This document shows positions 38,201 through 64,000 of a stretch of 64,000 bases of DNA, one piece after another. Position 1 is the stretch's first letter, and each line of letters begins with the position of its first letter. Location of the stretch: NCBI RefSeq assembly GCF_964355755.1, contig NC_092670.1:19020795-19084794 (forward strand), given 5' to 3'. The notes beneath the pieces were generated by a model that saw nothing but the letters and a program-made list of their open reading frames with translations, was not told the DNA's origin and ran no database searches. This DNA is from Antedon mediterranea (Eukaryota > Animalia > Echinodermata). The position numbers and the translations under genes were made by a program.

Positions 38201-41200
38201 ATTGGACATAATAAGAGATTCCTTCCTTTAGGTAAAGACTAAATATCCATATTACTCGCAACAACAATCATCATTTAAGTTTCAGACATTCAATGTACAC
38301 CTTGTGGTCTAGTTTAGTTGAGAATTGTTCAATGTATTAAATTAGATTTCAATAAGATTCAACACTGTAAAACCTGGATTTTTTAGTTTTTGCCTTGGAT
38401 TTTGGAGAACATTGGATTGTAAGTTTATTGTACATTAGTTTGTGTTTAAAAATATATATTTACGTGTTTACTTTTATTTTCTGTATATACTATAGTTAGT
38501 ACAGTTAGTGTTGGGGAAGATTAATTTTTTTTTTTATTCTAGACTCATTGGTTCAAATCACTTTGTAATACTAGAGCTACAAAAGTCCATTACTTTTGTA
38601 TTTTGAGTATGTTTTCTGAAATTTCTTTAAATGCCCTAAATATAAATAATAAAGAATCACACTAATAATTGCATCACCCATCAGAAATATATCAATCTAT
38701 TTTAATTTTGTTTTTAAGGTGCATTTTTGGATAAACTAGCAACCAAAGGAAAAATGGGGTTTAAAGTGTTCCTTGGGATCCTTGAGACAAGGTATCCTGA
38801 ACTCTATAAACAATTGTCTGGAAAAGAACCAGTTTCCCGAGGTAAGTTCTTAGCCATTAGTCTCCCATGAAACCACTGTGTTTAATTAAACCAAACCATG
38901 GTAGACTCAACCATTGTATTTTACCTAAAACTTGGTAGGCATACTTGAGCCCAAATCACAACTCTGTTAGAATAATAAGGAAATCATATAGATAAGTGTG
39001 ATTCAAATGGCTTCCGCAAAAAAAAAGTTGTCTTCCTTCTTTCTATTGTATGTACTTTGTAATCATACAATATGATTGGTATATATTCAATCCAGAAATC
39101 TTTGGTGGTGGCAGTAAATGTTACCGTAAATCTTCTAATTGTAACCATGGGTTATTATTCTTTGATTGTTTTTTAGGGTGGGTTACTAATAGAAGTGGGG
39201 TTACAATTTAGAGTAGGTTACTACTTTCCGGGCAGCAACTTATAGCAAAATAATAAAACCGTACGAATGAACAAATTTGGTTGAACTTTATAAACTCAAA
39301 AACACTCCATCCTCCCCCACTCCCGAGATCAACATGCATTATCTCCTTATTTTCAAAATACGGCCAGTTTTCATAATGAAAAGAAAAATATAAAATAAAC
39401 AAATTTCTCAGTCTTGTCACAGTTTTTACTAGATTCAAACTACAGCTTATGCTAACTGTATGCTTTTGTCGTTGTCATTTCAATCATGCCTATTTTAAGG
39501 AATAAATCAAATGTTGATTTTAGTGTCGTTTTGTTAATAGTGTTTGTGATTCTAATAGTAACCCCTATGGTTACTATTAAGTAACCCCTATGGTTACTAT
39601 TAGAGTAGTGGGTTATTATTATAGATTGATTTATAAGGTGGGTTACTATTAGAAGGTGGTTACTACTATTACAGTATTAGAGTGTGGGTTATTATTATAG
39701 ATTGACCCATCCGTTAACAGTAACCCCTATGGTTACTATTAAGTAACCCCTATGGTTACTATTAGAGTAGTGGGTTATTATTAGAGATTGATTTATAAGG
39801 TGGGTTACTATTAGAAGAGGGGTTACTATTAGAGTGTGGGTCATTACTATTAGAAGATTTACGGTAATTAACTAATCTGTAATGTAGATGTGTTCATTAC
39901 GTACTAGTTGCACACCTAAGATACTTAACGGAAAAGTTGTCAAAATTCCAAATGATAACCTGTACTGTACATTCTTATAAATCAGTTGATGTAACAGCTT
40001 CCAATTGCTTCTATTCTACTGCCCCTTATTTCATTAAATCTGAAATTTAGATGTTACAGAAGTAATTGGGAGTAACTTGATTTTGGTTTGTATGCGGGTG
40101 CAGATCACCCTAATAATATTAGGTTTCTTCTTTGTTGGTGTCATTTTATTTTTGTTTTTTATTTGTAAATTATTGGATATGAATCAATTTGTTTTTTGTA
40201 CCTGGTGATGCCAGACTCAAAACAAAACTGAAATACATAGATTAGTTGGTACAGTTTATAGAGAGGGAATTTAAATAATAGCTGTAAAACATTTCAGTCA
40301 ATTGTCATTCCATAGAAAAGTGGCAGATTGTGTTCTTCTAATTATCTTAATATTGAACATAACATCAACACAAACAGAACATGCCAACAGTTGTGTTCAC
40401 ATTTGAAGATCCCATGCACATGTTCCGCAGAAAATAAGGACATAGGTTTCCAAATGAGCAGTTTACTCTTCGTTTAAGTTCTGTCTACACTATCAAACAG
40501 TTTGATGTGCCCCAATATGGTAGTGATATGCCCAAATAGGGTAAAGATATGACATCATCATGTCCATATATGGGCACATAAAATGTTTTTGTCACATAAA
40601 GTGTGATAGTGTAGACAGAGCTTTATTCAAAAACCTGTTTACATTGGCCAAATGGAAAGCTTCAGTTATTGACACCTTTGCCATAATTTAACGGTAAATT
40701 TCATCTCTTTTTCAATGTCAACAGTTGTAGCAGTCCGTTCCATCCCCACTTAAAAATGTTCAGTTTAATAAATGTTCTTTACAAATAACTGACAGTTTCC
40801 TTTTAAAAATGATAGTAACAAAGTGTTGCTATTTTTGGCTACACTCAATACAAAATATTTAATAATTCGTATGCAGAATTACAGGTTGTATTTGTGCTTT
40901 TGATTACTAAACCTGATTGTTTGCAAAGTAATGTACTTTTGTGTATGAAATGTATTAGAAGCTAAATAAGTTATTATGGCCTCATTTGTTAACATCCTTG
41001 GTTATTGGAACTGTGTGGGCTGCAGCCATTTCGATTTCCTTTTCCTTATTATGGTACCAGATAAAGCTTTTAAATGCTAGGAATTAGTTTTTTAAAGATC
41101 ATACAGTGTATTGTCCTTTCAAAATGAGTCTTTTGTGAAAAGGATAATCTTGATCTGTATATTTAATAGAAGGCTTTCTTTTTGTTGAAATAAAGTTTGC

Positions 41201-44200
41201 GGTAGTAGTACACCACAGTATAGTTCTGAAAAGGACTGTTGGGGTTCTTAAATCAGTTCAACTTTATTCTCACCCACTCAAATGTATAAAAAAAAAACTT
41301 TAAGCAAAGGAATCTAATCCATTTCTATTTACTTGGCAATGATACTTCATTTTAAAAACTGTAATACAATTTTATATATATTTTTATGTTTATGTTAATG
41401 ACATTTAACCAGTTATTTGCTCATAGCAGAAATGAGCGAACCCTGCTATATTCCTTGTTGCTTTATCAGTATTTGTAGAATTTCACCTAGAAATTCCATA
41501 TCATTGCGTCAATTGTTTACATTATGAGTTTGCAGATTTGTTTAGAACATGAAGATATCTCGAAGGTTCCAGAAAATCTTTTATAAACCTTCAAATCCAG
41601 GGTTGCCTTAGGGTTTTAATTTAATGATCTCCACTGTAGCTTATTTCTTTTTAATTGTATTCGTTTGGTTGGCTGATTTCCAAAAGATGGAGGAAATATG
41701 GTAACAAAATATGAAACGGATAACAATTTCGGGAATTTTTATAAACATCTGATTTTTGTAAAAATATGAATATATATTTAGTTCAGGTCACATTGATTTT
41801 AGGTTGCACTATAAAGATGCTAATATTACATATATTAAGATATGATGGTATTCTTTGTAAAAGTGTTTTATTTTGTGTAAAAGCCCATATAAAATTATTC
41901 ATCATGAATATGTATTTTTTTTTAAATATCAAATGTTAGTGTCACTGTCACTATAAATGAAAAAAAAATTAATAGTTAAATAATATTTGTTTCTTTCTAG
42001 GACCTGAGGGGAAGCCATTAGTGGGAGAAACATGTAGACAACATCAGGATTTAATAAAGAATTTAGCGTTTGAAAGCGCAAAGATGGCAAGCAAAGTTGA
42101 AAGCTATAAAAATGAGAATGAGAACTTAATACGCAAGGTCAACGAACTTCAGCGATATAACGACATCCTGAAGATGAAACATAATAAGAACATGATCAAA
42201 TTACAGCGTTTTGATGAGTTGCAACAAGCAATAGCTATGGTTGGTGCAATACAAATTGTCAGTTAAAAAGATATGAAAATAATTGTTTAACATTTTTGTT
42301 GAATATTGTTGACATTAATCACAGTTATTCAATATGACCAAATATTGGATTGGAAAAAAATTTTCTCCCTGACTAATTTATCACAAAAAATAGTCAAATT
42401 AACTAGAAGTTAATTCGTTTATTTTGTCTTTTTATAAGTGAAAACATAATTTTTTTTCTACAGAAGTGATTAAAACTGCAATATGGCCTATTAAAAGTCT
42501 TTTTCTACGAATCTTCATTTTTTATGTCTTTGGGGGACATTGGCAACCAGTCGAAAAGCGCATAATTTTTAAAATACTACTCTTAACCTATAAAGCTCTC
42601 TCGTTCAAATCCCCTTCATATCTCTCTGACCTTCTTCCTCTTCACATACCTTCCCGTCGCCTTCGCTTGTCTTCAAAAAATCTCCTTTCCATTCCGACTT
42701 TTACGCCCGTATTCTTAAACCGGACTTTAGTCGTAGTTCGAAGTTCGACTTGGAAAAGTCGTAGTTCGAGCTATTACTTCAAATTCGATTCAAAAACGAA
42801 GTAGTCGAAGTTTGCAGTTCGACTTAATGAAGTCGAGCTTTTAGTCGAGTTTCACACGTCTGGGTACTAAAGGCTATACATTGGCCAATGACAAGAGAGT
42901 ATTTGTGGAGCAGACGAAATTTTGCGCATTGATATCACTTTCCATTTTCTTACAAAACTTTTTACGCATCAGGACTATACACAAGAAAAATAATTTTAAT
43001 CGTTAATTATTAGAACAAGATCAGTATTAATTTAACAGTGAAGTACTTTTGGTTAACAACAAACAAAATCTACAAAATATATTTAGGAACCATGGCGGTA
43101 CGGTAACTTTTATATTTTCTAGGCCCCCAACAAAGTATGATCGTGACGAACCACGCACTTCATAGCGTGACAAGAAAGCGCTAGGCCCCCTAAACCTTCC
43201 ATCGCGTGGTGAATTGCCGCATCTCCCATTGTCGCTATGGCGTGACGTAGCTCAAGTCGGACTTGCGCGAAGAAAATAATGTAATTTGTATACAGTTGTA
43301 AATAAAGATGATTTTCATTATTATAATTTATACCAATGTATATTTAATTAAGCTAATATAAATATAGATATTTCATTCTTCAATATCTGGCCAATATAAC
43401 AACTCAATGGCTGTTACGTTTTTTATAAACATCGTTTAAAAACCATTTAGTCGACCATTTAGTCTGCCCCCTCCAGGACTAAAAAAATCGATCAAAATCC
43501 GTCTCGATTTAGTCGAGGTTGGCCTGATTTAGTCGGTGATTTAGTTGAAGTTCGGTTTATGAATTAAAATGACGTCATTTTTTTAGTTTTAGCTCGAACT
43601 ACGACTAAAGTCCGGTTTAAGAATACGGGCGTTAGCACTAAAACATATGGCTTAAGCACCTTCACTTCTGCTGCCTCTCGCTTATGGAATGACCTACCCG
43701 CCTCTATCAGATCATGTTCGTCTACTATCGCCTTTAAATCTGCCTTGAAAACTCATCTTTTTCTTCAGATTGAGCTCTCTCATACGCCTTTGATCACTTA
43801 CTGCTGGAATTGGCACGTTATAAATTTATACGACTGTATTATTATTATTATTATTATTACATCTTGATGTCCAGTGAATATTTACTACTGCCATCTGGTA
43901 TATAACACAAAATTGTGAGCATTTTAGGGTTTTCTGCTTTATTTTAATCCTAATAATTCTCATTTTCATTCTATTGTGTTATTATTTTTATTCACTTTTT
44001 TCTGATTCATTTAATAGAGTCAACATGAATTGAATGACTTAACGACACAGCAAAGAAACATTCTGGCAAAATCTCTCCAATTGCAACAAGAAAAAGAAGC
44101 CATACAGCGCCGTCTAAGAAGTGTAAGATAAAACACATTTTCTGCAAGGACCAACAATTAGGATTGCCCGTAGACAAGACAATTATAAACCGCAACTATG

Positions 44201-47200
44201 TTTTTTATTAATTATTATTTGATGTATTTTTATTATGTGTGGAAAATATTTATTGAATATTGAATAAACGAATTGAATTGAATATAGTTTAGTATATTTT
44301 AGTAAGGAATTTATTTATGTGATGACAAAATGTATTAAGCAAATTGACTTTTAATTTGTTTTAGAGCAATGTGGAGATCACAGATTTGAAACGTCAACTT
44401 GAAGGGTATAAAGAACACCAGAAAATCCAAAAGGAAATTATCAAGTCATCAAGGAACTCGAAAGTGTTAACACGTAGCCCATCCATCGACTTAACACGGT
44501 CAATGGAAATGGAGATTGAGAGACTACGTCGGGAACTGGCAGCGTACACAGATTCCAAGGTAAAACTATCAAACTTTATGTGACAACAAAATGTGATGTG
44601 CCCATATATGGACATGTTGATGTCATATCACTACCATATTTGGGCATATTACTACTATATTTGGGCACATCACACTTTTTTTGTCAAAATAGTTTGATAG
44701 TGTAGACAGAGCTTTAAGAAAACAATTTTGTATGTTTAATAATGGTTTATTTAATAAACTCTGAATGTATCATATATTATTGTGCTTTTAATTTTGACAG
44801 GGTGTTGATGTAGAGGTTGCAATTTTACGAGACGACCTACGAGACAAAACTGCAGAATGTGAACATCTTGCAGAAGAATGGCAACACACACAGAAAGAGT
44901 TAAACACTGCAGAAGAAGAAAGAATAACGGTAAGTAAGCTGCACTCTCCCTCCTCAACAAACAAACAATAGTAATTTTAAAACCGAAATCCCCCTTTAAA
45001 GTGATTGAATAGCAAACAATCAACTTTTAGAATTCTTTTTACCTCATTTAACTTATCATTATAGCATCCTGATCTATATATATATATATATTTAAATATT
45101 TTTATTTAAAAAAAATTTGTATATTTAAGATATGTATTTTACATATTATTTACAGGCAATGAGTGACCTGGAAGATGTTCGATTCACTTGTCAAAATTTT
45201 GAACGAGAAGCAATACGATACAAACAACTTCATGAACTAAATATTAAACATTCCGACAGAACAGAAGAAGACTTAAAGAAGGTAATATATTTTATCCTAC
45301 TAACAATCAATAAATATGTTAATGTGGTAGTTTTAATACATTTTATTAAATGGTGATGTGATGTTTGTATGAATGGACATTTCAGACAAGTACATAATAG
45401 CAAAATAGAATACTTCTATTATTCCATCATTAACATTAATGAAATATGAAACTAGATTTAATTCGTCACCATGACGAATTATAGGTTATATGCATTGATT
45501 TAAATAAAGATATATTGATTTTTAAAAGATATATTGTTTGATTGATTTTGTCAGAATCTTTAATTATTTATAATGTATAATGGCCATAAGAAATTTATGT
45601 AACTAGATGAAATTGATCTGATAATTGATGAATAAAATAGTGCTAAGGAAAGAATAAATAAATAAAGAAAATATATGCATGATAATGCATATAACCTAAA
45701 TAATTACAGTTTTTCATTCACTCATCACTGTTTTGCTCAAACACAAATATAGAACGTTTCTTATTATCATTAGGTATGCTTTATAGATTCTGTTTTTCTT
45801 GTAGGTGAGAGAAGATCGAAACTCATTGGAAACACACATCGATTCACTTTTGCGAGAACAGAGGGATTTGTTGTACAAAGTGCAAGAACTTCACAACAAG
45901 AATATGACCCTTGTACATGAAAAAAGTGTTTTAACAAAAGCTATAAATTGTGGCACGGCAAAAAGAAAAAAGGTAAATTATAATATATAGTTAATTCTTA
46001 CAAAATAAGCGTAATGTTCAAATGTTCAAAAAAAGTTTCACAATTGAGTAAAAATGCAAATTTTAATACAATAAATTTTTACAAAACTGGACACCCATAA
46101 AAGAATGAGACTACATGAAAATGTTTATGCTTTTTAATACGGGAAATTTGTTTAAGTTTGTGATGTCTGAATTCCAGTTTTAAGACAATATGTTCTTTAT
46201 ATAGGCTTACATACAAATTTGTTATTCAACCATGTCCATAAATTTTATATCTTTTTCTATGTTATTTATCTTGTAGGGTGTAAGTCCAGATCTTGGTTAT
46301 GCAGGTGGCTCGGTAAATATTTTGCTTATTACTAAATTGATAACTAAATAGAAAAGGCAATTTGACAACTTTATTACTTGTCCTAATCCTATTTAGTTAA
46401 ATCCTAAATTCCTGAATCTTGTAGTCAAAAACATCTGTGCTACTGTTTGACCGGTGCTTCAGTACTATACTCGTATACCTCTTTTGACTTACATCCCCTT
46501 CCCATAGAGATATTATAGTTCACTACAATATCTCTATGCTCTCCCTCAGGTTATGTACTATATATAAATAGCTATAATATTTTTTTCAGCAGTCAGGATC
46601 TTCAAAAGGAGGATCACCTCGTAATTCCATGGATGACAAGTCAACAGCCGAATCCACAGGAACCGTCTGCTCCAATCCAAAACTGCATCTCAACATTGGA
46701 CATACTGCTACAGACAGTGAACCGAGTTCATTCCGTAAGCGTTCTGATGCCATAGGCGCCTGCTCCCCAATTGCACGCTCACCTTTACGTTCCGGAAATA
46801 TTTACGCCACATTACAGCGGAAAACCATATGTAGTGATATTGATGAATCGGTCTCTATGCCGGACTCTTCATGTAGTAGTATTGAGTCCTTAAGTGACAA
46901 AGACTCAGACGTACCTTCAACTGTACCAGCTCGCCGTCCTCACATCCGTTCTAATCGAGGAGCAGACAACCTGTCAATGGATGTTAACCCAGGCTCAACT
47001 AGAAATAGATTCACGTTGACATGGTAAGATTTTTATACCTGAATGATGCTTTCCTCCACACTTCCCCTTTCTCACTGCTCTCTCCCCTTTCTCTGCTCTT
47101 CCCCCCTTTCTCTTTTTTTCTGAATGATGTTTGTGAAGGTAATGTAGCTTTGACTAAGTTTGTGTCTCTTCTTTTCCTCCACACTTCCCCCTTTCTCCGG

Positions 47201-48226
47201 TCTCTACTTTCTCCACACTTTCTCCCTTTTTCACCTCTCACTCCGCTTTCTTTGCTCTCTCCCCTTTCTCGCTGCTCTCTCCCCTTTCTCGCTGCTCTCT
47301 CCCCTTTCTCTGCTCTTTCCCCCTTTCTCTTTTTTTTCTGAATGATGCTTGTGAAGGTAATGTAGCTTTCAATAAGTTTGTATCTCTTCTTTTCCTCCAC
47401 ACTTCCCCCTTTCTCTGGTCTCTACTTTTTCCACTCTTTCTCCCCTTTTCACCTCTCACTCCGCTTTCTCTGCTCTTTCCCCCTTTCTCATCGCCCTCTC
47501 CCCTTTCTCTGCTCTTTCCCCCTTTCTCTTTTTTCTGAATGATGCTTGTGAGGGTAATGTAGCTTTCACTAAGTTTGTGTCTCTTCCTTTCCGCCACACT
47601 TCCCCCTTTCTTCAGTCTCTCCTTTATCCACTCTCTCTCCCTTTTTCACTGCTCTCTCTCCCCTCTCCACTAGTCTCTCTCCCTTTCTCATCATCTTTTA
47701 TGTTGCCTAAATAAACTTTAGCAGATAACATAACAGATAAATTAAGTAAGTCTACATTTTAATATTCTTATTCTTAGCTTTGGTGGAAAATCTTTTGATA
47801 TCAGAGAAGAGAACAAGAAAGAAATTATTGATGAAGATGAAGAGGAAGATCCATATGGTTAGTATATAATATTTATTGAGTAATAGTACACCCCCTCCAC
47901 TTTGTTACATATTGTGAAACAACACCACATTTCTGAGGAGGAGAATACTAAACAATAATAATTCACTGACATAACAATTTATTTGACAGTGGCAACTCGC
48001 AAGATTGCAAATCAATGTCAGTACTTATATTACTATAACCTAAATTAAAATTTACGTTAAATTAGCATGTTCGTCAATATTTGTATATACTGTATAATTT
48101 TAAAAACTTGATTTTCTAGATTATCCTGAGGTATATAAAAGGCGTTCTATGTCTCTCACCGACCTTAACCTCTTATCATCCGCCAACTACGATTTTGTTG
48201 ACATCTCAAAACCGAAAAACAAATAA
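32271..48226 (+). CDS. CARD9: CARD9/CARMA (CARD11-type) CARD-coiled-coil adaptor without PDZ-SH3-GUK, ~662 aa
   Basis: Exons 32271-32316 (tentative; alternative ATG 33565), 33557-33757, 38719-38841, 42001-42239 (or -42257), 44018-44122, 44365-44559, 44801-44929, 45156-45281, 45805-45972, 46277-46312, 46590-47023, 47778-47857, 48120-48226; 1989 nt, open. The CARD reads LLEDNRESLVKDINVSDFFFTLRSESIFDMNDEQ...[40 protein letters not shown], matching the CARD9/CARD11 signature G.LLDIL.TKG..GY..FLESLE..YPELYK.VTGKEP. A long coiled coil and a Ser-rich linker follow. The symbol indicates family, not proven orthology. Confidence 0.88.
35938..36598. mobile_element. Tc1/mariner (pogo/Tigger-like) MITE, TA TSD
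   Basis: ta|ccgtactgacgcgggtataagccca ... tgggcttatacccgcgtcagtacgg|ta; internal gggcttatacccg repeats. Confidence 0.9.
39124..39864. mobile_element. Tc1/mariner (pogo-like) MITE, TA TSD, with gggttactattag subterminal repeats and an internal duplication
   Basis: ta|ccgtaaatcttctaattgta ... actattagaagatttacgg|ta; ~39557-39713 is repeated at ~39720-39850. Confidence 0.8.
40477..40622. mobile_element. Harbinger/Tourist-like MITE (same family as 20363), TTA TSD
   Basis: tta|agttctgtctacactatcaaac ... gtgtgatagtgtagacagagct|tta. Confidence 0.85.
42538..43858 (+). mobile_element. 5'-truncated L2/CR1-group LINE (ORF2 C-terminus and (ATT)n tail), interrupted by a MITE
   Basis: HWQPVEKRIIFKILLLTYKAL...PSYLSDLL...RRLR..SKNLLSIPTF joins in frame, after removing 42704-43634, to STKTYG..TF..AASRLWNDLPASIRSCSSTIAFKSALKTHLF. 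This is the typical L2/Crack/Daphne ORF2 end. The element finishes with tattattatt. Confidence 0.85.
42704..43631. mobile_element. Harbinger-like MITE with perfect ~38-bp TIR, TTA TSD, inserted in the LINE
   Basis: tta|cgcccgtattcttaaaccggactttagtcgtagttcga ... tcgaactacgactaaagtccggtttaagaatacgggcg|tta. Confidence 0.9.
44565..44713. mobile_element. Harbinger/Tourist-like MITE, left end truncated next to a splice donor
   Basis: actatcaaactttatgtgac...gtttgatagtgtagacagagct|tta begins about 5 nt after the donor at 44560. Confidence 0.75.
47038..47690. repeat. Pyrimidine-rich complex tandem repeat (~200-bp unit, about 3 copies) in CARD-CC intron
   Basis: tgaatgatgcttgtgaaggtaatgtagcttt...cttccccctttct recurs at ~47121, ~47339 and ~47536. 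Confidence 0.85.
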
Positions 48227-51486: not shown

Positions 51487-53987
51487 ATGCCTGGGTAAGT
51501 CTCAATTTGGAAATTATGCAAATCGTTCAAGCCAAAACATCTAATTAAAATATAAAATATTTAAACAGAGGGTAGGCCTAATATTTTAAAGGTTAACAAC
51601 TCTCGTTTTTTTTTAAACAATCACCCATAAAGTATACTAAAACAACAGTCTCAATTAAAAAAAACTACACATAATGAATATTTATAATAGTATTTAACAT
51701 GGTAACTCTATCTTTTTAATCAATTTTTTTTTTATAGAAATTCATCGTCAACAAACTACGGCTTTGGAGAAGTATCAAGAAAAAGAGGAGAATGGAAAAA
51801 ATATGCAGCATGTGTTTTTGTTGGTTTATTTGTTGGTCTATTGGGGTGGATGGCACCAGTTGTTCCACTGCAAAGAATTAAACAAATATCTGTGAATGGG
51901 ACAAAGCTTGACCAACCCGATTTGTACTTCCTTAATATCTACCACTTGGTATTTTTTCTGCCTATAGTGTTTTACAGCGCCATCATTGTGAAATGGCTCC
52001 AGTGCTTTTTTGTGATGGTAGAAGAATTAAAACACATAAAAACTCGTCATAAGAACTCATTTCGCACATTAGTTGAGAACTGCTACCAAGTTTTCTGGAC
52101 ATTAAAATCGTGGGTAGGACTTGGGATTTCATTGCTTATTGTGCATTGGATGAGAAGTATGGATAAAGAACTATTTGATAACCATTTTGTAATGTACTGG
52201 CCGATTGTGGTAACATCCGTTGGTATTAACTTAATTACCAACTACATACTGGGTTTTGAGGTTTGTATCAAACTAAATGAAAGTATACAGCTAATTTACA
52301 GACGACAATGTCCAAATTTATGGGAATCTGTTTAATTGCTTATGCAGATTTGGAAAATATCTAGTTTTGGGATAGTTTCTGATTTTCCAAGTATTCACTG
52401 CTTTAATTGATATAGTATTAACCTGACAGAATGTCTATTAAACACCATTCTAGGCTAACTAACATTTTTGTGCCCAGTGGACTAGTTCTCATCAAGCTTA
52501 TTTAACAGTAATCTTTATTATTCAGCGACATTTATAGTAATGCACTTGTTATTTTAAACTTTGCAGACTCTATCAGTTGTTGAACTGAGTGAAATCCATG
52601 AATCTAGCAATGTCTATGTCGCACAGGGCCTAGCATGGAGTTACTTCACTGGCTATCTCAAAATTATTCTGAAAGGTTTGTAATTTAGTGCATTTTTAAG
52701 ATTCATTACTTTTACAAAATTAACTTCAAACTTTATTTTTTGCATTTAGAAACTTTTTTTTTTTAAACAGAATTGGTTAAAGTAGAGTAGGGGTTACCCT
52801 GGTGTATTGGTTAGTTTCAATGTGTCCTGAAAAAACGAATGAGCGATGTTTATTGGAAGCGGTATGATGACTATTGTGTAGATTGTCCCAGTTACGCTAC
52901 ACATTTACAAAACAGGCTTTTTCTTTTTTTTTTTGCAGATCTTCAAGGAACTATTAAGAAAGATGAAAAAAAGTGGAAAAAAGAATATGAAGATGGAAAC
53001 TTGCAAAGCAAATTTTATGCTATTATTCCTCTCAACTGTAAAATTCCTTCCAAACTTGGAGAGAGTGAAAAACACAGAGGAATTACTTTTGAGGGCAAGC
53101 TGCCTACTTTGTTTGTCGATCGTGCAGGTGTAAAAGACAGACCTTACGTTAATTCAGTTTACAAAATTGACAATGAAAAAGGCGAAGTAAGTATAAATAG
53201 ATAATTTATTGTTGTTCTATCAATCTTTACAACAAGAGAGTGACTAAATCTACTAAACATTGTCTCTTGTTTGCTGCAGGAATGTAAAAAAAAAAAGATG
53301 TTATCTGTCAATGCTTTTTTAATGTAAAAATGTCTTCTTCTTTTAGTATCACTATGCCATTTGTGAATATGTGACCATCATTGATACACTGTTCCAGATG
53401 CCTTCATGTACTGATTTTGACCCACAAAACCGTGAAGAACAGTGCCGCTTGCTTGTCAGGAAACTTAGGGAATTGATTGAAAGTGATGATGAATGTCGAG
53501 AAAAATGCGTAATTGTGATGTTTTCAGGTAATCTTTTTTTTACTATTGTGTCATTTCCAATAGAATATATTTGGTGAAATTTGTGACATGTCAGTTAACA
53601 ATGGTTTGACATCCCTTTGTTCAGATAAAGGACTTGACCTGTGACAAGCTCTGTGTTGGCCATTTATGTACAATTCTAAACTTAATTGTAAATGATGCAA
53701 AACTGATTCATTTACTTTGTCTAAAGCTCTGTCTACACTTGATGTGGAAAAAAATGTGATGTGGCCATATATGGACATGGTGATGTTATATCACTAATTT
53801 AAGCGTATCACTACCATATTTGGGCACATCACACTTTTTTTGTCAAACTAGTTTGATAGTGTAGACAGAGCTTAATAATCATGTTAATAATGTTATTGCT
53901 TTTCTTTCAGGGGAAGATGAAGGCCCTCTATTAAGAGATGTTCTTCTTGACAGAATAAAAGAAAACCGGTTACAGATCAATGGCTAG
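51487..53987 (+). CDS. STING1: STING paralogue A (stimulator of interferon genes), 381 aa, no C-terminal tail
   Basis: Exons 51487-51494, 51738-52260, 52567-52675, 52939-53186, 53347-53527, 53911-53987; 1146 nt, open. Motifs: VSRKRG, four TM segments, [81 protein letters not shown]. Confidence 0.95.
53725..53872. mobile_element. Harbinger/Tourist-like MITE in the last intron of STING-A, TAA TSD
   Basis: taa|agctctgtctacact ... gtttgatagtgtagacagagct|taa; absent from the equivalent introns of STING-B and STING-C. Confidence 0.85.
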
Positions 53988-56456
53988 AAGCGAATGTCTA
54001 AGTGTGTTATGATGTGTCATGGTTTTTTAAGAGGCTGTGGAGATTTTTAATATTAAAATGTTTTTATGTATATTTTTGTTTGGCATCCTGACTATACGAG
54101 TTTGTTTTTGTCTACAATTGAATTAGATTCATTTTGTTGTGGTATTTTTTTAATTTAAATTTAAATTCTTAAACTTTGACATCTCACTATGTAAAAAGTG
54201 CAAGTGAAGGATTGTATGTATTATGTTGACTTTAACCAGGGTATTTTTATTTTATCTATTTTATTTAATCAAGATCAACAGTGGCACAAATTTATATTAT
54301 TTTCAAATAAAATGTATATATTAGTGTCTTTTATCATTTTTTACAAATAACAAATAGATGAACTTCCATTAACCCTATTCTATAACAATACAAGTATATA
54401 CAGTAGTTAAAATTCTGCAACAATGGTGGGCATTTCTTTTCCTTTTTCATTTATTTTTCATTCATCAAGACTCAACAGATTGACACTATACAATATTATG
54501 TAAATATTTTTCCATAAATATAATATTCATAAATAATGAATATACAATAGAAAGGACTTACATTATTATAAGATAAGATGAAATATACCAAAATCTATAT
54601 GTAAAGTAAACTGTTTAGTTTAAAATGTATTACGATATAACATACATCATATTTTTGATACTTAATACTATTCATATAAAGTAGTTAATTAGAATAGGTA
54701 AAAATATTCATGATTTTCTGCAATTTCTGTTAATTATTTAAGTTGTTGTGTTTCATGTCTATAATGTCAATATTTGCTAAAATGTATTTTGGTGCAGAAT
54801 GAAGTATTGATAAAAGGTAATTCAAGATAAATGATTTATTTAATTGAAATTCATGAATTGGACTTTAGAAAGCACAACAAATAAAACATACTTTTCAGCA
54901 TCCGTCGTATCATTGATTGTACTGTAGTACTATTAATATACCGTAAAATATTTATGGAGGTGAACAAATTTTAATTGTCGATAACAAGTAACAACATAAA
55001 TGTTAGAAACACATATACGAACAGTAATAAACGCCGAATATATATTTTAAAAGTTGGATATATTAATAAGAAGCCACACAAATAATGATAAAGAATGGGT
55101 TTTTTTTAAACCGTTTGAAAAATGGTAAAACTGACGAGTGTATTGAAAATGACTCCAATGTTATGCGTCGTCGGGGGAAATAAACATTTAAAACCGTAAT
55201 AGTAACGGCTTTTCATCTATATATAAATTTACGTAAGGGCAAAATTCGGTAAATCTCGGTTTATTTCTAGAATTTCTACTCGATGGTATATAAAGTTGGT
55301 TCATACTTTCGGTACTGATTTTAACCATCTGATGTAACCCTGTTTACTAATTAAATTGAGTTAGGTAATTAGTTATTGACGATTAAAACGAATTTAGGTT
55401 CAACGATTTGCCCCAAATAGGGGTGTTGTCCGATCGTGGTATACACTGTCTAATGGATGTCCATCTTGAAAAATACCCGCCACAAAAATACGAGGAGGCT
55501 TCGCATTTTCCTATCTCCTCCTACGATAATTGTTTTTAATAGCTGAAAACTGGTTGAACAGCTAGAGTACAGCATCATAATGTTGAAGACGGGCCGATTT
55601 TCTTAAAAAAATACTATTTTGATAGATTTAATATACGATTATACAAATGTATTGATTTGCGATGAATGGAACATTCCAATCTCTGTTTCACAAGTGTCTA
55701 TTCCCTCAGGCGTCGTAAAGGCAAGTACAGTACTGTATACTCGAAATTCGATCCATTTTTGTTTTCAATCTGTGCTGCAGAGGTTGGATATAATTTTTTT
55801 TTTAAACGGATAATGAGCTAGCGTTTTCACTCGCCGTATATTATGTACAAATCTTTATTATTGCAGTTAAACCACCCACATCATCACCTTTCCCTCACTG
55901 GCATGAGTAGCGTTGTAAAACCAGTAGAGAATAGGCCGCGCCTACGGTACATAACATGCCCTAAACGCAGAACAACTTTGGTGGGTAGGGTAGGAACCAA
56001 CTTAAGTATAAATTGGCTCTAAGAAACAATTGAAACCATTAGGCCTACTAATTAAGTTGAGTTAGATAATTTAATATTATGTTTTACTGTGTTTAGTGGT
56101 ATATTATTTGTAAAACATGAAAGCAATTAATATTTCGTTACTAAATGGATAAAGAATATATTTTAACATTGTTCCTCTTTGCACCCATCCTCTTCCCCAT
56201 CCCTCAACCCTAATATTACATACAAAACACAAATTAAGTTTGTTTAAATTTGACTTAAACAATTGGTCTTATTTGTGACAAGTTTCTCTTTCGGAAGTAA
56301 TAGGGTGCTAATTTTAGTTGAGTACATAAATCACAGTGTCTATTTATTCGTTCCTGTACACGACATGTATTATTGTCCTGCGGTACGTACATTTGAAATC
56401 GCCAGTTTTTTAACGCTGAAATTATTATGTATTCGAGAACCATCTGTGAGCACGAC

Positions 56457-56493
56457 CTAGATGGTACGCGAGCGAAGCGAGCGTACCATCTAG
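56457..56493 (+). other. Perfect 13-bp-stem hairpin ending in CTAG|T; probable Helitron 3' terminus
   Basis: ctagatggtacgc-gagcgaagcga-gcgtaccatctag|t. The GCGAAGC mini-hairpin plus terminal CTAG before T fits Helitron ends. 5' end not located. Confidence 0.5.
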
Positions 56494-56703
56494 TATTATT
56501 AATTTTTCTAAATCTTCATATGTGTTCGCATTATGTAACACAACGACAACATATTGTTCATTTAAATTTAGATACAAACATTTGTTGATCATTTGCATAT
56601 GAACGAGACGAGATGTGCCAAGGGTCGTTGTCAACAATGGCCTCATAACGGTCGTCATAAATTTATAATTGTAACCAGTAGTATTGAGTCTACAATTTTT
56701 ACA

Positions 56704-58556
56704 ATGGCGGGGTAAGTTTTCCCTGTTTTCTGTTACTAAAGATAATTTAAACTGTAAATTACGATTCCATAATATATTTTGTATTGTAGGTGTGATCACT
56801 GCATTGCAAACAACACACCGGGAACAACTCACATACTTATGTGGTGCCGAAAAAACGAGGTGAAAGGACACGATATACGGCCAACTTGTTTTGTTTTCTA
56901 TTCGGTATTTATAGTTTTTATTTGATCGCAACTACAGTTCAACTTGAAAAGATGGAAGAAAGAAGCTTTTGCAACTGGACACTAACGGCTGGCGAAGAAG
57001 AGTTATGTCTTGTCCGTGAATACAACCATGTATTCTCTCTGCCTGTCCTATTTTTCAGTGCCATCATCTCAAAAATTGTTATGTGCTTGTTCGTGTTGGC
57101 CGAGGAATACAAGCACAAGCAAAGTCGCCACAATAATTCAAACCGCCAGTTGCTTAAAAATTGCTTCCAGGTATTTCTGACAATGAATTTTTTAGTGGGA
57201 TTTTGCATTTTACTGGTTTCCCTATATTGGATAAGGAGTAAAGATATATATCTTTTTACCAATCACTGGTCACTCAACTGGCCAAACATCATAACGTCGG
57301 TCGGTGTCACAGTCATTACGAACTACGCATTTGGTTTCAAGGTTTGTACAGTTTTTTAGTAGGGCCTATATGATATTCTTAACATAAATAGGCTAATTTT
57401 GGACTTTTATGAAGCTGTTCTTAACTAGTTAACCAGTTGACCCACAACAATGAGCCATTTTTGTAGTTGTTTTTATTTTTTTTTATTTTCTATAGTCACT
57501 ATCAGTTGTTGAAAACAGTGAAATCCATGAATCTAGCAATATCAATGTTGCACAGGGTCTAGCATGGAGTTATTTTACCGGGTATCTAAAAATCATTCTG
57601 AAAGGTTTGTGAATTAGCTTTTTTGCCTTAAAAATCAAAAAATAAACAATAACAAATCTTCAAAAATAATTTTTAAAAAAATACTTTATTTAACACTGTG
57701 CATATACTAGTCTTCTTTCACATCGTCTGTTCTCTGAATTATATTACTAATATATAAAGTCATTCATTCTTTTACATTAAGCTGTATGAATATATCATTT
57801 TATCTCAGATCTTAAAGGAACTATAGAAAAAGATGAAATATGGAAACGTGAATTAAATCAGGGAAACCTGCAGTGCAAATTTTATGCTATTATACCTCGG
57901 AACTGTAGCATTCCTTCCAAACTTGGAGACAGCGACAAACACAGAGGAATTACAATTGTCAGTGATTTACCGGTTGTTGAAGAACCTCGTGCTGGTGTTA
58001 CCAGGAGGTACATTAATTTAGTCTACAAAATTGAAAATGAAGAAGGAGTTGTAAGTAAAATCTGTACTGTAGTGCTAGTTCATATATAATAAATGGATAG
58101 CTAAGAAGTGGTTACTTTTTACAAAATATTTCAATATAGAGCCTTTTCTTTCAGTCGCACTATGCCATTTGTGAATATGTGACCATCATTGATACACTGT
58201 TCCAGATGTCTTTGTATACTGAATTTAATGCACAGAAACGTGATGATCAGTGCCGTTTGCTCGTCAGAAAACTTACGGAACTAATTGATAGCAACGAAGA
58301 TTGTCGAAATAAATGCGTCATTGTGCCTTTTTCAGGTAAACACAAAATAGTGTCTAAACCAATCATGTTTGCCCTGAAATTGTATGCGTGACTTTGTTTT
58401 ATTTAAGAACATACAATCTTGATCTGAAATGGATTAATTTACTTTGCCTAACAAATTTGTTTAATTTATTGGTTTTTTTCAGGTGCAGATGATGGCCCTC
58501 TGTTAAGAGATGTCCTTCTTGATAAAATCAAAGAAAATCGGGTACAAATTAATTAG
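56704..58556 (+). CDS. STING1: STING paralogue B, with an apparent 1-nt frameshift at the start of exon 2 (possible pseudogene, variant allele or assembly error)
   Basis: Exons 56704-56711, 56790-57341, 57496-57604, 57809-58050, 58155-58335, 58483-58556; total 1166 nt, not a multiple of 3. Otherwise intact: [62 protein letters not shown]. Confidence 0.9.
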
Positions 58557-59936
58557 TGGCTAAAAGTTGACTGAAAATGTATTATGATTACTGTAGCAGT
58601 GCCAGAGTAATCCTCGCCACAAGTGCCCATGATCTGACCATATATTTTGTCTACTTTTGATTTGATTTTGGTGGGGAGTTTTTTTTAGTTTCAATTTTTA
58701 TTTGCAATTCTTAGAATTCAAAATAATTTCAGTATCATATAGGCCTATATTTTTATGAAAAAACCGTAAAAATAAATGAACTAAATACAATTTTTTATAA
58801 CAATATTAGTACAGTATACAGGTTTTAACTTTAAACAAGGTATTTTTATTATTTTTGTTTTGTATCAAGGCTGAATAGTAAGTAACCAATTTCTGAATTA
58901 AGTGTGATGGGTTAGGGTTTTATTCAAATTTTGTTTGCATTTCTTAGAATTAAAAATAATTTCAGTATCATATATATTATTATGAAAATACTAATAAATG
59001 AACTTTTCTATAATAATATAAGGACAGTATACAGGTCTTAACTTTGAACAGGGTATTTTTATTTATTTTTTATTTTTTTATCAAGGCTGAATAGTGTTTT
59101 CCTTTTATGCATTTTATATATATAGATACTTGAAAAGTACTGATTAAAGGTTAATCAAATTAACAGTTAGTATAGTTAAATGCACATTTTATAATAAAAT
59201 GTTTAGTTAGTAATTCTGCGTCATTTATCATTATAGTATTATTGATATACAGAATAAATGAAAACAAATATTAATCATTTGGTGTTCATGTCTATAATGT
59301 AAATATTTGCCAAATAATAATAATAATAATAATCATCATATTTTGTGCAGAATGATTGTTGATAAAAAGGAATACAAAGTAAATGATTTTTTAAAATACG
59401 AACAGTAATATCCTAGAGTGTTAAAAAGAGTCATTATTTGAATCACCAACCATGAAAGCCCCGGTATTTTAATGGATTTCGGGTTCGATTTACACATATA
59501 ATTGAACATATAAAGAGCCACATATGACATGAAAGAACCTCACAACAAGTGTTAAAAAGAGCTGTATAAAATGGGCCGATTATTAATGACAATGCGCGCG
59601 CCGATCGAAATAATGTATTAAATGCGCGTGTCACATTACTCATTTTTCTAAAGCTTTTGTTCTCATGAAACATAACGATATTATATTCTTATGGAAAATC
59701 CAATTTAGATAATTTTAGATACTAGTTTGCATATAATGAACGATACTGTAGGCCATTGTCAACATTATACTCGATCCTGTTAAACCGGCATAACGCCAAT
59801 TGCAATTCGTCAAGAAAAGGGTCAGTATCGTTTCAAAGTTCAATCCTCGTTTCTCTCATAACATTTATTAATATCTTGTTATTTTTTTTCTCATTTTTAT
59901 ATACAGTATTATTGTGTATCCAGTGTATGTACAACA

Positions 59937-62784
59937 ATGGCTAGGTAAGGTTCCTCATAATTATTCTATGCTGATAAAAATATTATGATGTAAGCCTCTT
60001 ACAATAGTGGGGCTGATATTAAGTGGAGTGGTATTGATATTAAGTGGAAAGAGCTGATAACGTCAGCTCCATGATCTATGCTATAGTAAATATAATTTTA
60101 ATTGTTTCACCATTCCAATGGTTATTCACCAAACCCCAATATTACGGTACCAATTACGGCATTATTTATCAATAGGAATTCTTATTCTTCTGGGTGTCGA
60201 GAGATACCAAAAAGGCGAGGCAAGGCCAATGAAATTGCAGCAATTATTGTTGGTATATTATGTATGATTTATTTGTGTGTGGTGTGGATGATTATCAAAG
60301 TGGAAACGCTAGGCGAAGGTGACATATTCTTTCAATGTATGTATAACTCTCTATCTGCTCTGCCAGTGATGTTGGTCTGTACCATCATTACAAAATGGTT
60401 TTTTTGCTCTTTTGTGCTGATCGAAGAACAGAATCACACGAAAAGTCGTTACGATGGTAACAGTTGGCTGCTATTTAAGAACTGTTTCCAGGTATTTTTG
60501 ACAAGAAATTTCGTCTTAGGAGTAGTATTCTCCATTGTTATTGTGATTTTGGTGATAAGTAGCGGTACAGATAGTTTTTACAAGTTCTTCGTCACCAGCT
60601 GTCTGAATTCCATAACAGCAATCGGTGTTTCAATCATTACAAACTACATTTTCGATTTTAAGGTTGGTACGTATAGGCTGTAGTATAATATAAATAAAGT
60701 TTGATACCAATTAAAATATATTTGTTGATTAATTTTATTTATAAATATCACAGACACTATCAGTTGTTGAGCTCAGTGAACTTGATGAATCTAGTAATAC
60801 CAATGTTGCAAAGGGCCTAGCATGGAGTTACTTTACTGGATATCTGAAAATCATTTTAAACGGTATTTATCAACCATTATAAAGTAGTATTTTTGCTAAT
60901 TAATTTTAATTTCTTAGTCTTTGACTAATCTTTAATTGCTTAGTCTTTGACTAATCTTTAATTTCTTAGTCTTCGACTACTCTTTAATTTCTTAGTTGTT
61001 GACTAATCTTTAATTGCTTAGTCTTTGACTACTCCTTAATTTCTTAGTCTTTGACTAATCTTTAATTGCTTAGTTTTTGACTAATCTTTAATTTCTTAGT
61101 CTTTGACTAATCTTTAATTTCTTAGTCTTTGACTAACCTTTAATTTCTTATAGTCATTGACTAATCTTTAATTTCTTAGTCTTTTTTGACTAATCTTTAA
61201 TTTCTTAGTCTTTGACTAATCTTTAATTTCTTAGTTTTTGACTAATCTTTGATTGTTTAGTCTTTGACTAATCTTTGATTTCTTAGTTTTTGACTAATCT
61301 TTGATTGTTTAGTCTTTGACTAATCTTTAATATCTTAGTCTTTGAATAATCTTTAATTTCTTAGTCTTTGACTAATCTTTGATTGTTTAGTCTTTGACTA
61401 ATCTTTGATTTCTTAGTGTTTGACTAATCTTTGATTGTTTAGTCTTTGACTAATCTTTAATTTCTTAGTCTTTTTTGACTAATCTTTAATTGCTTAGTCT
61501 TTGACTAATCTTTAATTTCTTAGTTTTTGACTAATCTTTAATATCTTAGTCTTTGAATAATCTTTAATTTCTTAGTCTTTGACTAATCTTTGATTGTTTA
61601 GTCTTTGACTAATCTTTGATTTCTTAGTCTTTGACTAATCTTTGATTGTTTAGTCTTTGACTAATCTTTGATTTTTTAGTGTTTGACTAATCTTTGATTG
61701 TTTAGTCTTTGACTAATCTTTGATTTCTTAGTTTTTGACTAATTCTTAATTTCACTTAAAAATGTACTGTTTTTAGTATTAGTATTATTTAGTATTATTC
61801 TTATTTTATATCTTTGCAAATCATGGGAATAACACACATCAATCATTTTGTATCATTGATTGGTTGTAAGGTTCGTGTTTCACAAGAAAAAGTTATAGTA
61901 ATACAAAACAATTCTTTTCCATCAGATCTTAAACAAACGGTCGAGAACGATGTAAGATGGAAACAAAAATTGGAAAACAAAACATTAAAATGTGTATTCT
62001 ATGCTATTGTACCTCTGAACTGTAAAGTTCCTGCTGATTTGATTGAATATAAGGAAGGTATTACGCGTGTGGGTGAGTTGCAACCTGTGTCAAAAAATCG
62101 TGCTGGTATGAAAAGGGAGTACACTATTCCAGTATACAAAATTGAAAAAAAAAACAACGAAGTGAGTATAGACTTTAAGAAGTGCATGTGCGCAGCTTCT
62201 ACTAAAGACATTAAAATAAATATTTGACTGGTATTTGCATATACAATATTTAGTCATAGTCTTTAAATCAGTCCATTAAGTAAGTGTGACTATAAGAAAT
62301 CTTATTTTTTAGCCACCATTCTTTGTTATTTGTGGGTATGTGACCATCATCGATACGCTGTTTGAGATGACTAACTTTATTAAATTTGAAGAAAAGAAAC
62401 GTGAAGAGCAATGTCTACTGTTCATAAGGACACTTCAGGAATTAATTGACGACAATTGCGAAGAAAAGTGCGAGATTGTGACTTTGTCAGGTAAGCCTTG
62501 AGTACCAAAGATGGAGAAGGGTAGTAACACTATATTTTGTCTGCCTAGATTGCGTAACGTAGGCCTTCTCTACACCTACACACAAAAAACCTCCTATATG
62601 TTGAGCTATTTGACACATAAAGAATTAACCGGTAATATTAAGTTCAACAGGCTTTTGAAATCTTGGCTAATCAATGTCATTTTTAGGTGACGACTCTCTG
62701 ATAGATGCTCTTTATAAAAAAAGAGAGAAAGAGAACAAGAACGAGGGCGGAGAAACTCGACTGTCAATGAGTACTGATGTATAA
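59937..62784 (+). CDS. STING1: STING paralogue C, 371 aa, divergent pocket and short C-terminal extension
   Basis: Exons 59937-59944, 60176-60662, 60754-60862, 61926-62161, 62313-62490, 62687-62784; 1116 nt, open. Motifs: [64 protein letters not shown]. Ends ...[22 protein letters not shown]. Confidence 0.93.
60905..61755. repeat. Minisatellite, roughly 32 copies of a 26-bp unit tttaatttcttagtctttgactaatc, in STING-C intron 3
   Basis: Head-to-tail degenerate copies; each unit contains the palindrome ttagtc-ttt-gactaa. Confidence 0.95.
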
Positions 62785-64000
62785 CATATAAGGTTTTCAC
62801 CAAGGCATCGATACACTGTACTGCCGTTCACTTCGGGAATATTTAGATATCATCATAGGAAAAATGTCACTATACAAAGATTGGTAACACGGCCACTATG
62901 GATATTAGTATACTAGGCCATAAAGCGAAATAATGAATTGATTTTTCTTCTTTGAAATGAATATACGTATAGCTAGTGAACCATAATAGTTGCACTAATG
63001 GAATAAATAGGCCTTTAACAAGTTGGTTGATCCTATAATAATAATTATTTGTTTATTTCTGGTGTATTATGTACGGTAATTTTGGCTGCATTGTATTATT
63101 TCAACCTTTAGTTGCTTTAGTTATAAGAAACGTTCTATTAGTCTGAAGTTTTAGTGTGTGTGAGTCAGATTTTCATTTTTGAATAAATTAAATATGGCCA
63201 GGGGGCCGCCGGGGCTTTTAGAGCATTTATTAAATAAATTCAATATCAAAAACAATTACTATAATAGTAGAACTAAGCCGAATTTAATAGTATCAAAACC
63301 AAAAACAAACTACATAAAACGTAGCTTATATAAAGGTACCAAGATATTTTAGTGACCAAATAAAATATTTCGTTTATACATCTTTTGTCATAATTATTAT
63401 ATAGTACTCTTGATGCACAGTATTTTTTTGAATTTTAACAAATTATATTTGTTGATAAAAAAAAGAGAAAATGTTAAAAAAACAAATACGAACAGTAATA
63501 ATTATATTATAATAGTTTACATAAACGCTGAATATATCAAGTTAGATATTAATAAGGAGCGACATAATATATTAATAATAATTACTTTTAAGGCCGTCTG
63601 AGTATACAACAACATTTATTCAATATTCAATATTTTACAAAGTTTATGGGTTGAGATACACAGAAGCCAAAGTGGCTTGTCTTTGTAGTCCTAAGCATAA
63701 ACATAAAACATATTATACGGACGCATTACATTAACAAAAAATGACATTTTGAGACAGAAAAAGAAAAAAAAAACACACACAACTATATAATGACCGAGAA
63801 TGTGATGCGCTTAACTTTAATTAATGTATGGGAAAAACCAGTGTAATTATTTTTAGATACTATTGTTTGTATATAATTTGCATAAAAACCTATTGTTACA
63901 ATTATATTCGCTTCAATTTGTATATGGTATATGTTTTGATGAAGAGGAGATATGCATTGTCCGTAAATACAACCATCTATTTTCTCTGCCAATCGTGTGT

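What the first reader, a model, noticed from the sequence alone, without database searches (positions are those of the whole stretch)
51487..62784. Three tandem STING paralogues with diversified cyclic-dinucleotide lids
Seen, using human numbering R232-AGIKD-R238-V-Y240-S-N242-S243: A = RAGVKDRPYVNS (canonical length), B = RAGVT-RRYINL and C = [12 protein letters not shown] and C are one residue shorter between the two arginines. C also changes E260 to G. All three keep S162/Y163/Y167/T263 but have I at P264. Established: a one-residue-shorter lid in Drosophila STING is linked to 3'2'-cGAMP preference, and invertebrate STING paralogues can discriminate between cGLR-made dinucleotides. Inference: the array is a panel of receptors for different second messengers, or includes decoy or heterodimer partners. 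The dimer-interface motif [15 protein letters not shown] is identical in all three, so heterodimers are plausible.
Basis: partly seen in the sequence, partly recalled or inferred. Interest (0 to 1): 0.85.

Follow-up and report, generated by a model that had tools for sequence, protein, structure and literature searches.

The report
Feather-star STING array with two lid lengths
A feather star carries a tandem array of STING immune-receptor genes in which some copies keep the standard ligand-binding lid and others have a lid one residue shorter, likely tuning them to different cyclic-nucleotide alarm signals, as already shown for coral STING copies.

Summary
Confirmed, with corrections. The window (crinoid Antedon mediterranea) holds three six-exon STING genes, and a fourth fragment starts at its end. 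The protein collection holds eight Antedon STING loci. The lid motifs, E260G in C and the shared helix are as reported. Five of the eight have the short lid, which occurs in only 3 of 123 single-domain non-crinoid STINGs, and its carriers are not one clade (AU p=0.03). The lid is near-invariant within a class (22-23/23, even across genera; 22/22 for C and its sister) but only 8-10/22 identical between classes. C is spliced in the one RNA run laid, as are B-type transcripts. Corrections: (1) in Drosophila the deletion explains loss of 2'3' readout, while 3'2' preference involves S162N, absent here. (2) B lacks a usable exon 1-2 join in this sequence, and its L243 is not seen in any laid contig. 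(3) I264 is crinoid-wide. Best reading: a diversified receptor panel (0.55); no ligand was tested. The concept is published for coral; what is new is a natural series that separates lid length from pocket-floor changes.

The parts
51487..53987 (+). STING copy A, canonical lid; exons 51487-51494, 51738-52260, 52567-52675, 52939-53186, 53347-53527, 53911-53987
   Evidence: identical to XP_071962897.1; Pfam; an RNA-run contig matches exon 2 with 0 differences and runs on at both ends
53088..53156 (+). A lid tract (beta-strand lid; R232 to R238 six apart)
52627..52671 (+). A dimer/pocket helix [15 protein letters not shown] (S162, Y163, Y167)
56704..58556 (+). STING copy B, short lid; putative exon 1 56704-56711 has no good in-frame join; exon 2 ends 57341, then 57496-57604, 57809-58050, 58155-58335, 58483-58556; annotated start Met 56952
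   Evidence: B-type splice joints at introns 2-5
57955..58020 (+). B lid tract, one residue short; 9/22 identical to A against 135/174 in the rest of the ligand-binding domain
57556..57600 (+). B dimer/pocket helix
59937..62784 (+). STING copy C, short lid with N242I, S243P and E260G; exons 59937-59944, 60176-60662, 60754-60862, 61926-62161, 62313-62490, 62687-62784
   Evidence: identical to XP_071962929.1; spliced joints at introns 1 and 5; model pLDDT 83.8
62066..62131 (+). C lid tract, one residue short; 22/22 identical to sister locus XP_071962940
62334..62336 (+). Gly codon at the position of human E260 in C
60814..60858 (+). C dimer/pocket helix
63923..64000 (+). Fragment of a fourth STING-like copy (exon-2-like), running off the window end; intactness unknown
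   Evidence: tblastn with B E 6e-5, and 86% DNA identity over 50 nt to B 56994-57043; no annotated protein found

Best explanation
This is a tandem array of STING receptor genes in which the ligand-covering lid comes in a canonical form (A) and in one-residue-shorter forms (B, C), and the short-lid copies likely recognise a different or broader set of cyclic dinucleotides than A. A keeps every known contact (S162, Y163, Y167, R232, R238, Y240, N242, S243, E260, T263) and is predicted to prefer 2'3'-linked signals such as 2'3'-cGAMP. In B and C the deletion is predicted, by analogy with Drosophila STING, to pull the R232 equivalent off the 2'-5' phosphate while R238 and Y240 still clamp the ligand, which would relax linkage selectivity. 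C also loses E260, which reads the guanine N2, so it is predicted to be indifferent to guanine or to favour G-less messengers such as cUA or c-di-AMP. Shown: gene structures, residues, class-wise lid conservation, splicing. Inferred: two origins (or transfer by gene conversion) of the short lid, every ligand assignment, and an expanded cGLR set in Antedon.
For: Lid tract identity is 22-23/23 among A, loci 908 and 961 and Anneissia 646, against 66-76% in the rest of the domain for the pairs tested; it is 22/22 between C and its sister against 73%; between classes it is 8-10/22 (binomial p about 1e-3 within class, 2e-4 for A vs B). Among 102 non-crinoid pairs at 50% or more identity the lid is not unusually conserved (0.56 vs 0.59). 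The short lid is in 5 of 8 Antedon loci but 3 of 123 non-crinoid single-domain STINGs; G260 is in 0 of 102 canonical-length single-domain ones. Short-lid backbones are not one clade (AU p 0.033). R232, R238 and Y240 equivalents are kept, and the C model forms the lid hairpin at pLDDT about 95. Whole-gene dN/dS is 0.36-0.58, and 0.62-1.19 in the lid. Spliced transcripts are seen. Precedent: coral STING paralogues differ in ligand, and Anneissia has 47 cGLRs (PMC9980059).
Against: The residues shown to switch linkage preference in coral and fly (S162 and T263 positions) are unchanged in A, B and C. E260Q and E260D destabilise human STING (PMC13499098), so E260G may simply impair C. B is defective at its 5' end in this sequence, and two more short-lid loci are annotated as truncated (299 and 155 aa), as expected for gene birth-and-death. 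The C/sister lid identity may be gene conversion: only one, synonymous, difference is listed in that tract in the sister-like contig. The A vs C and B vs C lid divergence is not exceptional (p 0.05 and 0.08; 16 of 102 background pairs are as low). Lid dN/dS rests on 22 codons. The Antedon cGLR count was not obtained.
Confidence: 0.55

Rival explanations
1. The short-lid copies are decaying or ligand-blind products of gene birth-and-death; at most they act as decoys or dampers of the canonical receptor.
For: B has no usable exon 1-2 join and is annotated without its first membrane helix. Two short-lid loci are annotated truncated. C carries E260G and S243P and its sister adds T263A. E260 changes destabilise human STING. 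dN/dS is higher for pairs with C.
Against: C has an intact 371-codon frame and is spliced, and an 884-nt RNA-run contig matches its last two exons and 3' end with 0 differences. Both lid arginines and Y240 are kept in all 5 short-lid loci. C and its sister share a 22/22 lid at 69-73% identity elsewhere. The RNA run shows a B-type contig with the normal GFGE codons where the window's B differs.
Confidence: 0.2
2. Short-lid copies work mainly as heterodimer partners of canonical copies, building an asymmetric pocket (one long lid, one short lid) suited to asymmetric messengers.
For: The dimer helix is identical. Elsewhere the short lid is strongly enriched in proteins with several STING domains in one chain: 15 of 46 such domains against 3 of 123 single ones (Fisher p 4e-8, not corrected for relatedness). 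6 of 22 such proteins pair a canonical with a short lid, and one scallop protein alternates 14,13,14,13.
Against: The helix is conserved family-wide. The membrane domains, which also form the dimer, are only about 32-42% identical among A, B and C. Most short lids in multi-domain proteins have lost the R232 equivalent (2 of 15 keep both arginines), unlike here. Co-expression in one cell is unknown.
Confidence: 0.12
3. All copies respond to the same messenger; the exposed lid has diversified to escape pathogen antagonists or to alter activation thresholds, with gene conversion shuffling lid segments between copies.
For: Pocket-floor residues are unchanged. Much of the divergence lies in the strand before R232. 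Histories are mosaic: A-B dS is 1.46 in the membrane exon but 0.52 in the ligand-binding domain, and an RNA contig matches B's flanks up to 57953 but not its lid.
Against: The deletion and E260G hit documented ligand contacts. An arms race would not predict a canonical lid frozen across two genera.
Confidence: 0.13

Closest known systems
Stylophora pistillata STING paralogues (Sp-STING1/2/3/5; PDB 8EFM, 8EFN; PMC9980059)
   Same: Several TM-plus-ligand-domain STINGs in one invertebrate genome (7 there, at least 8 loci here), from a group with many cGLRs; paralogue-specific ligand preference was shown there.
   Different: The coral switch uses pocket-floor changes (S162N, T263S). Here those positions are kept in A, B and C, and the changes are in lid length, N242/S243 and E260.
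Drosophila STING (3'2'-cGAMP and 2'3'-c-di-GMP receptor; PMC8410604, bioRxiv 2023.05.08.539652)
   Same: One-residue lid deletion, giving five-residue spacing between the two lid arginines (R229, R234), as in C.
   Different: The fly has N159 at S162 and keeps E257 (E260). Antedon B and C keep S162, and C has G260. The fly gene is single-copy; here short and canonical lids sit side by side.
Human and Nematostella STING
   Same: Same fold (C model Z 23.2, rmsd 1.5 A over 171 residues to 5CFQ). A keeps all listed ligand contacts.
   Different: I at P264. The Antedon proteins end 15-30 residues after the ligand-binding domain, with no long vertebrate-type tail.
Anneissia japonica STING trio (XP_033100636, 646, 648)
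   Same: Crinoid paralogues recorded on a 338-kb contig; 646 has A's lid at 22/23.
   Different: All three have canonical lid length and group apart from the Antedon copies (98/96, 85/85), so the short lids appear specific to the Antedon line among the sequences seen.

Membership tests
Metazoan STING (TMEM173) | STING ligand-binding domain (PF15009) and fold | tested here: met
   A 136 bits, C 114 bits, B exon 4 31 bits against a cut-off of 27; structural matches
Metazoan STING (TMEM173) | N-terminal four-helix membrane domain | tested here: inconclusive
   A passes PF23417; C and B exon 2 score below cut-off. Four helices in the C model. B's annotated form lacks the first helix
Metazoan STING (TMEM173) | Universal contacts Y167, R238, Y240 | tested here: met
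   Present in A, B and C; the register in B is ambiguous by one residue
Metazoan STING (TMEM173) | Binds cyclic dinucleotides and signals | not testable with these tools
   needs biochemistry
Diptera-type 3'2'-cGAMP-selective STING | One-residue lid deletion | tested here: met
   C unambiguous, B met in length; fly spacing from PMC8410604
Diptera-type 3'2'-cGAMP-selective STING | Asn at the S162 position | tested here: not met
   Ser in every Antedon copy that covers the site
Diptera-type 3'2'-cGAMP-selective STING | Glu at 260 and an acidic partner (fly E267) for the displaced arginine | tested here: inconclusive
   B has E260 but Q at human 270; C has G260 and E at 270. Equating fly E267 with human 270 is my inference from numbering; no fly alignment was obtained
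Sp-STING3-type 3'3'-selective STING | S162N and T263S | tested here: not met
   S and T in A, B and C; the C sister has A263; criteria from PMC9980059 section 9
Multi-STING cGLR signalling network (coral/oyster type) | Three or more STING genes | tested here: met
   3 in the window, 8 annotated loci
Multi-STING cGLR signalling network (coral/oyster type) | More than 20 cGLR genes in the genome | not testable with these tools
   No genome is held; the related Anneissia has 47
Multi-STING cGLR signalling network (coral/oyster type) | Paralogues differ in ligand preference | not testable with these tools
   needs binding assays

The most novel reading that the evidence does not exclude
Antedon evolved the fly-like lid deletion twice within one array, and the C class (short lid plus E260G, fixed in two loci) is a STING specialised for a guanine-free or still undescribed cGLR messenger, possibly acting through mixed long-lid/short-lid dimers that mimic the asymmetric pockets of mollusc tandem-domain STINGs.
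Probability: 0.2. Interest if true: 0.8.

Novelty: new variant of a known kind. Interest (0 to 1): 0.5.

Why it matters
Ligand switching in animal STING has so far been pinned on pocket-floor residues, and in flies the lid deletion and S162N come together. This array holds the deletion without S162N, with and without E260G, next to a canonical control on a closely related backbone (B is 78% identical to A outside the lid). The separate contribution of lid length to messenger selectivity is therefore directly testable with three small recombinant domains. If the classes differ, it extends multi-messenger cGLR-STING networks to deuterostomes and may point to new animal second messengers.

Tried and rejected
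No whole genome is held, so positions of the other five loci and the cGLR count were not obtained; the same-chromosome placement rests on an equal 'longest contig' length (41,379,608). No listed run is on record as RNA; X1 is treated as RNA because it shows GT..AG joints at predicted introns. X1 gave no cover over B exon 1 or 56777-56842, and contig depth was not used to rank genes. DNA runs X2, X4 and X5 are one sample and may not be independent of the window. The idea that B took its lid from C is rejected as stated: in the lid, B-C and A-C informative sites are equal (11 each, against 7 A-B). A TBK1-like motif in C's tail is rejected: the tail is a frameshift relative to the sister locus. 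A search for a fly STING alignment found nothing, and fly STING is not among the top 50 structural rows for C, which is uninformative. The fourth fragment has no annotated protein (weak evidence). A heterodimer prediction was not run, since paralogues of a solved homodimer tend to pass by likeness. Earlier scan findings: none. Literature searches found no paper on crinoid or Antedon STING; the library lacks most subscription journals. PMC10917227, PMC9343627 and bioRxiv 2025.09.04.674280 passages added nothing on lid deletions.
Full report
Observation. Exon modelling gave three + strand, six-exon genes with matching intron phases. The spliced A and C proteins are identical to XP_071962897.1 and XP_071962929.1 of the crinoid Antedon mediterranea. 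XP_071962972.1 is an exact 331-residue substring of B. Pairwise identity is 60% for A-B and 45% for A-C and B-C. Pfam, PDB sequence and fold searches all give STING. Alignments to human chains confirm the numbering: A has R232 and R238 six apart as in human, B and C are one residue shorter, C has G at 260, and all keep S162, Y163, Y167 and T263 with I at 264.

Corrections. The gap in B can sit on either side of its first lid-end arginine (searches align it differently). B's putative first exon (56704-56711) has no in-frame acceptor with a normal pyrimidine tract at the paralogous site. Of eight AG candidates two keep the frame, and both drop part of the N-terminus. The annotation starts B at Met 56952, without the first membrane helix. 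L243 of B reads as Ser in the laid contigs of all four runs, which may reflect another allele or B's near-twin XP_071963006 (five differences in 155 residues). I or V at 264 is shared with Anneissia.

The array is larger. A fourth exon-2-like fragment starts near 63923. The protein collection holds eight Antedon STING loci, counting named isoforms once, all with the same longest-contig length. Three have the canonical lid (A, 908, 961) and five the short lid (B, its twin, C, its sister 940, and 983). Loci 983 and the B twin are annotated truncated. Anneissia has three, all canonical in length, and they group apart from the Antedon copies.

Expression. Run X1 is only guessed to be RNA, but it shows GT..AG joints at B introns 2-5 and C introns 1 and 5. 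An 884-nt contig matches C's last two exons and 3' end without differences, and a 753-nt contig matches A exon 2 exactly and runs on at both ends. B-type contigs carry differences, two of which match the twin, so they prove a B-type transcript rather than this exact copy. One begins with the normal GFGE codons where the window's B diverges. This is one run, as contigs, so levels and tissues are unknown.

How unusual. I aligned the ligand-binding domains of all 157 proteins then held, mostly the best 150 of 697 hits, plus B. Of 123 non-crinoid single-domain proteins, 102 have the canonical 14-residue R232-Y245 segment and 3 have 13; the rest are shorter or fragmentary. Of 46 domains in 22 multi-domain proteins, 15 have 13. 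None of the 102 has G260. The sample is biased to crinoid-like sequences and did not show the fly type.

Pattern of change. The 23-residue lid tract is 22-23/23 identical among A, 908, 961 and Anneissia 646, against 66-76% in the rest of the domain for the pairs tested. It is 22/22 between C and its sister, against 73%. Between classes it is 8-10/22. Background pairs show no special lid conservation. The drop is strong for A vs B (9/22 against 135/174, p 2e-4) and weak for pairs with C (p 0.05, 0.08). With lid columns removed, B groups with canonical-lid 908 and 961, and a single short-lid clade is rejected at p-AU 0.033 (the B twin was left out as too short). The deletion therefore arose twice or moved by conversion. 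Counting-method dN/dS is 0.36, 0.53 and 0.58 over whole genes and 0.62, 1.09 and 1.19 in the lid (21-22 codons, not tested). Unequal dS between domains suggests conversion. The C model keeps a confident lid hairpin with a shorter second strand (compare A).

Mechanism. In fly STING a one-residue lid deletion moves the R232 equivalent out of the pocket and explains weaker 2'3'-cGAMP binding. N159 at the S162 position contacts 3'2'-cGAMP, and E257 (E260) reads guanine N2 (PMC8410604 passages; bioRxiv 2023.05.08.539652 passages). In coral, S162 and T263 positions set linkage preference (PMC9980059 passages and section 9). I therefore infer that A prefers 2'3'-linked signals, that B loses R232 linkage readout but keeps guanine readout, and that C loses both. 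A specific 3'2'-cGAMP preference is not predicted. Against function, E260Q and E260D destabilise human STING (PMC13499098 passages), and several short-lid loci look damaged. A supply of varied messengers is plausible: Anneissia, the only echinoderm row in Table S5 of PMC9980059, has 47 cGLRs and 3 STINGs. Supplement 7 of that paper was too large to read; its alignments could bear on how common short lids are.

Heterodimers. The shared helix is weak evidence because it is conserved family-wide and the membrane domains have diverged. The enrichment of short lids in tandem-domain STINGs, including two scallop proteins, is a lead for asymmetric pockets, uncorrected for relatedness.

Verdict. Real, and these are bona fide STING paralogues. 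Multi-STING panels and the lid deletion are both known, separately. Their combination in one deuterostome array, with the deletion uncoupled from S162N, was not found in seven searches of the held library. New variant of a known kind; interest 0.5.

Noticed in passing
proteins P0016, P0039, P0057, P0075, P0112, P0143: Proteins with several STING ligand-binding domains in one chain often pair a canonical with a one-residue-short lid; a scallop protein (Ylistrum, 1422 aa) alternates 14,13,14,13. These may be built-in asymmetric dimers.
   Followed up: partly
proteins P0086, P0099, P0102, P0104, P0110, P0116, P0123, P0126, P0132, P0134, P0151, P0155, P0156: A group of full-length STING homologues whose lid segment is 7-11 residues and lacks the lid arginines, apparently lidless. 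Organisms were not looked up.
   Followed up: no
window 33547-48226 (+): Upstream gene with a weak CARD match (E 0.002, below cut-off) followed by coiled-coil-like exons at 41976, 45129 and 45805; possibly a CARD9/CARMA-like scaffold beside the STING array (my recall, untested; PDB search gave nothing).
   Followed up: partly
window 62687-62784: C's C-terminal tail is a frameshift of its sister's tail: another frame of this exon reads like the end of XP_071962940. The RNA run matches C's version exactly.
   Followed up: yes
window 60901-61753: 26-bp satellite, 32.5 copies, inside C intron 3.
   Followed up: no
window 53724-53873 and 55137-56500: High-copy repeats: a short inverted-repeat element in A intron 5 and several elements between A and B, at very high depth in DNA runs.
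   Followed up: no
window 54925-55030 vs 63402-63501: Intergenic DNA upstream of B and upstream of the fourth fragment is 75% alike, suggesting duplication of a B-like unit.
   Followed up: partly
window 8463-22389 (+) and 26073-26420 (-): A coiled-coil gene with a weak CCDC154 match and a long Lys/Asp/Glu-rich exon (21712-22389), and an exon with a weak Sina-type zinc finger match.
   Followed up: no
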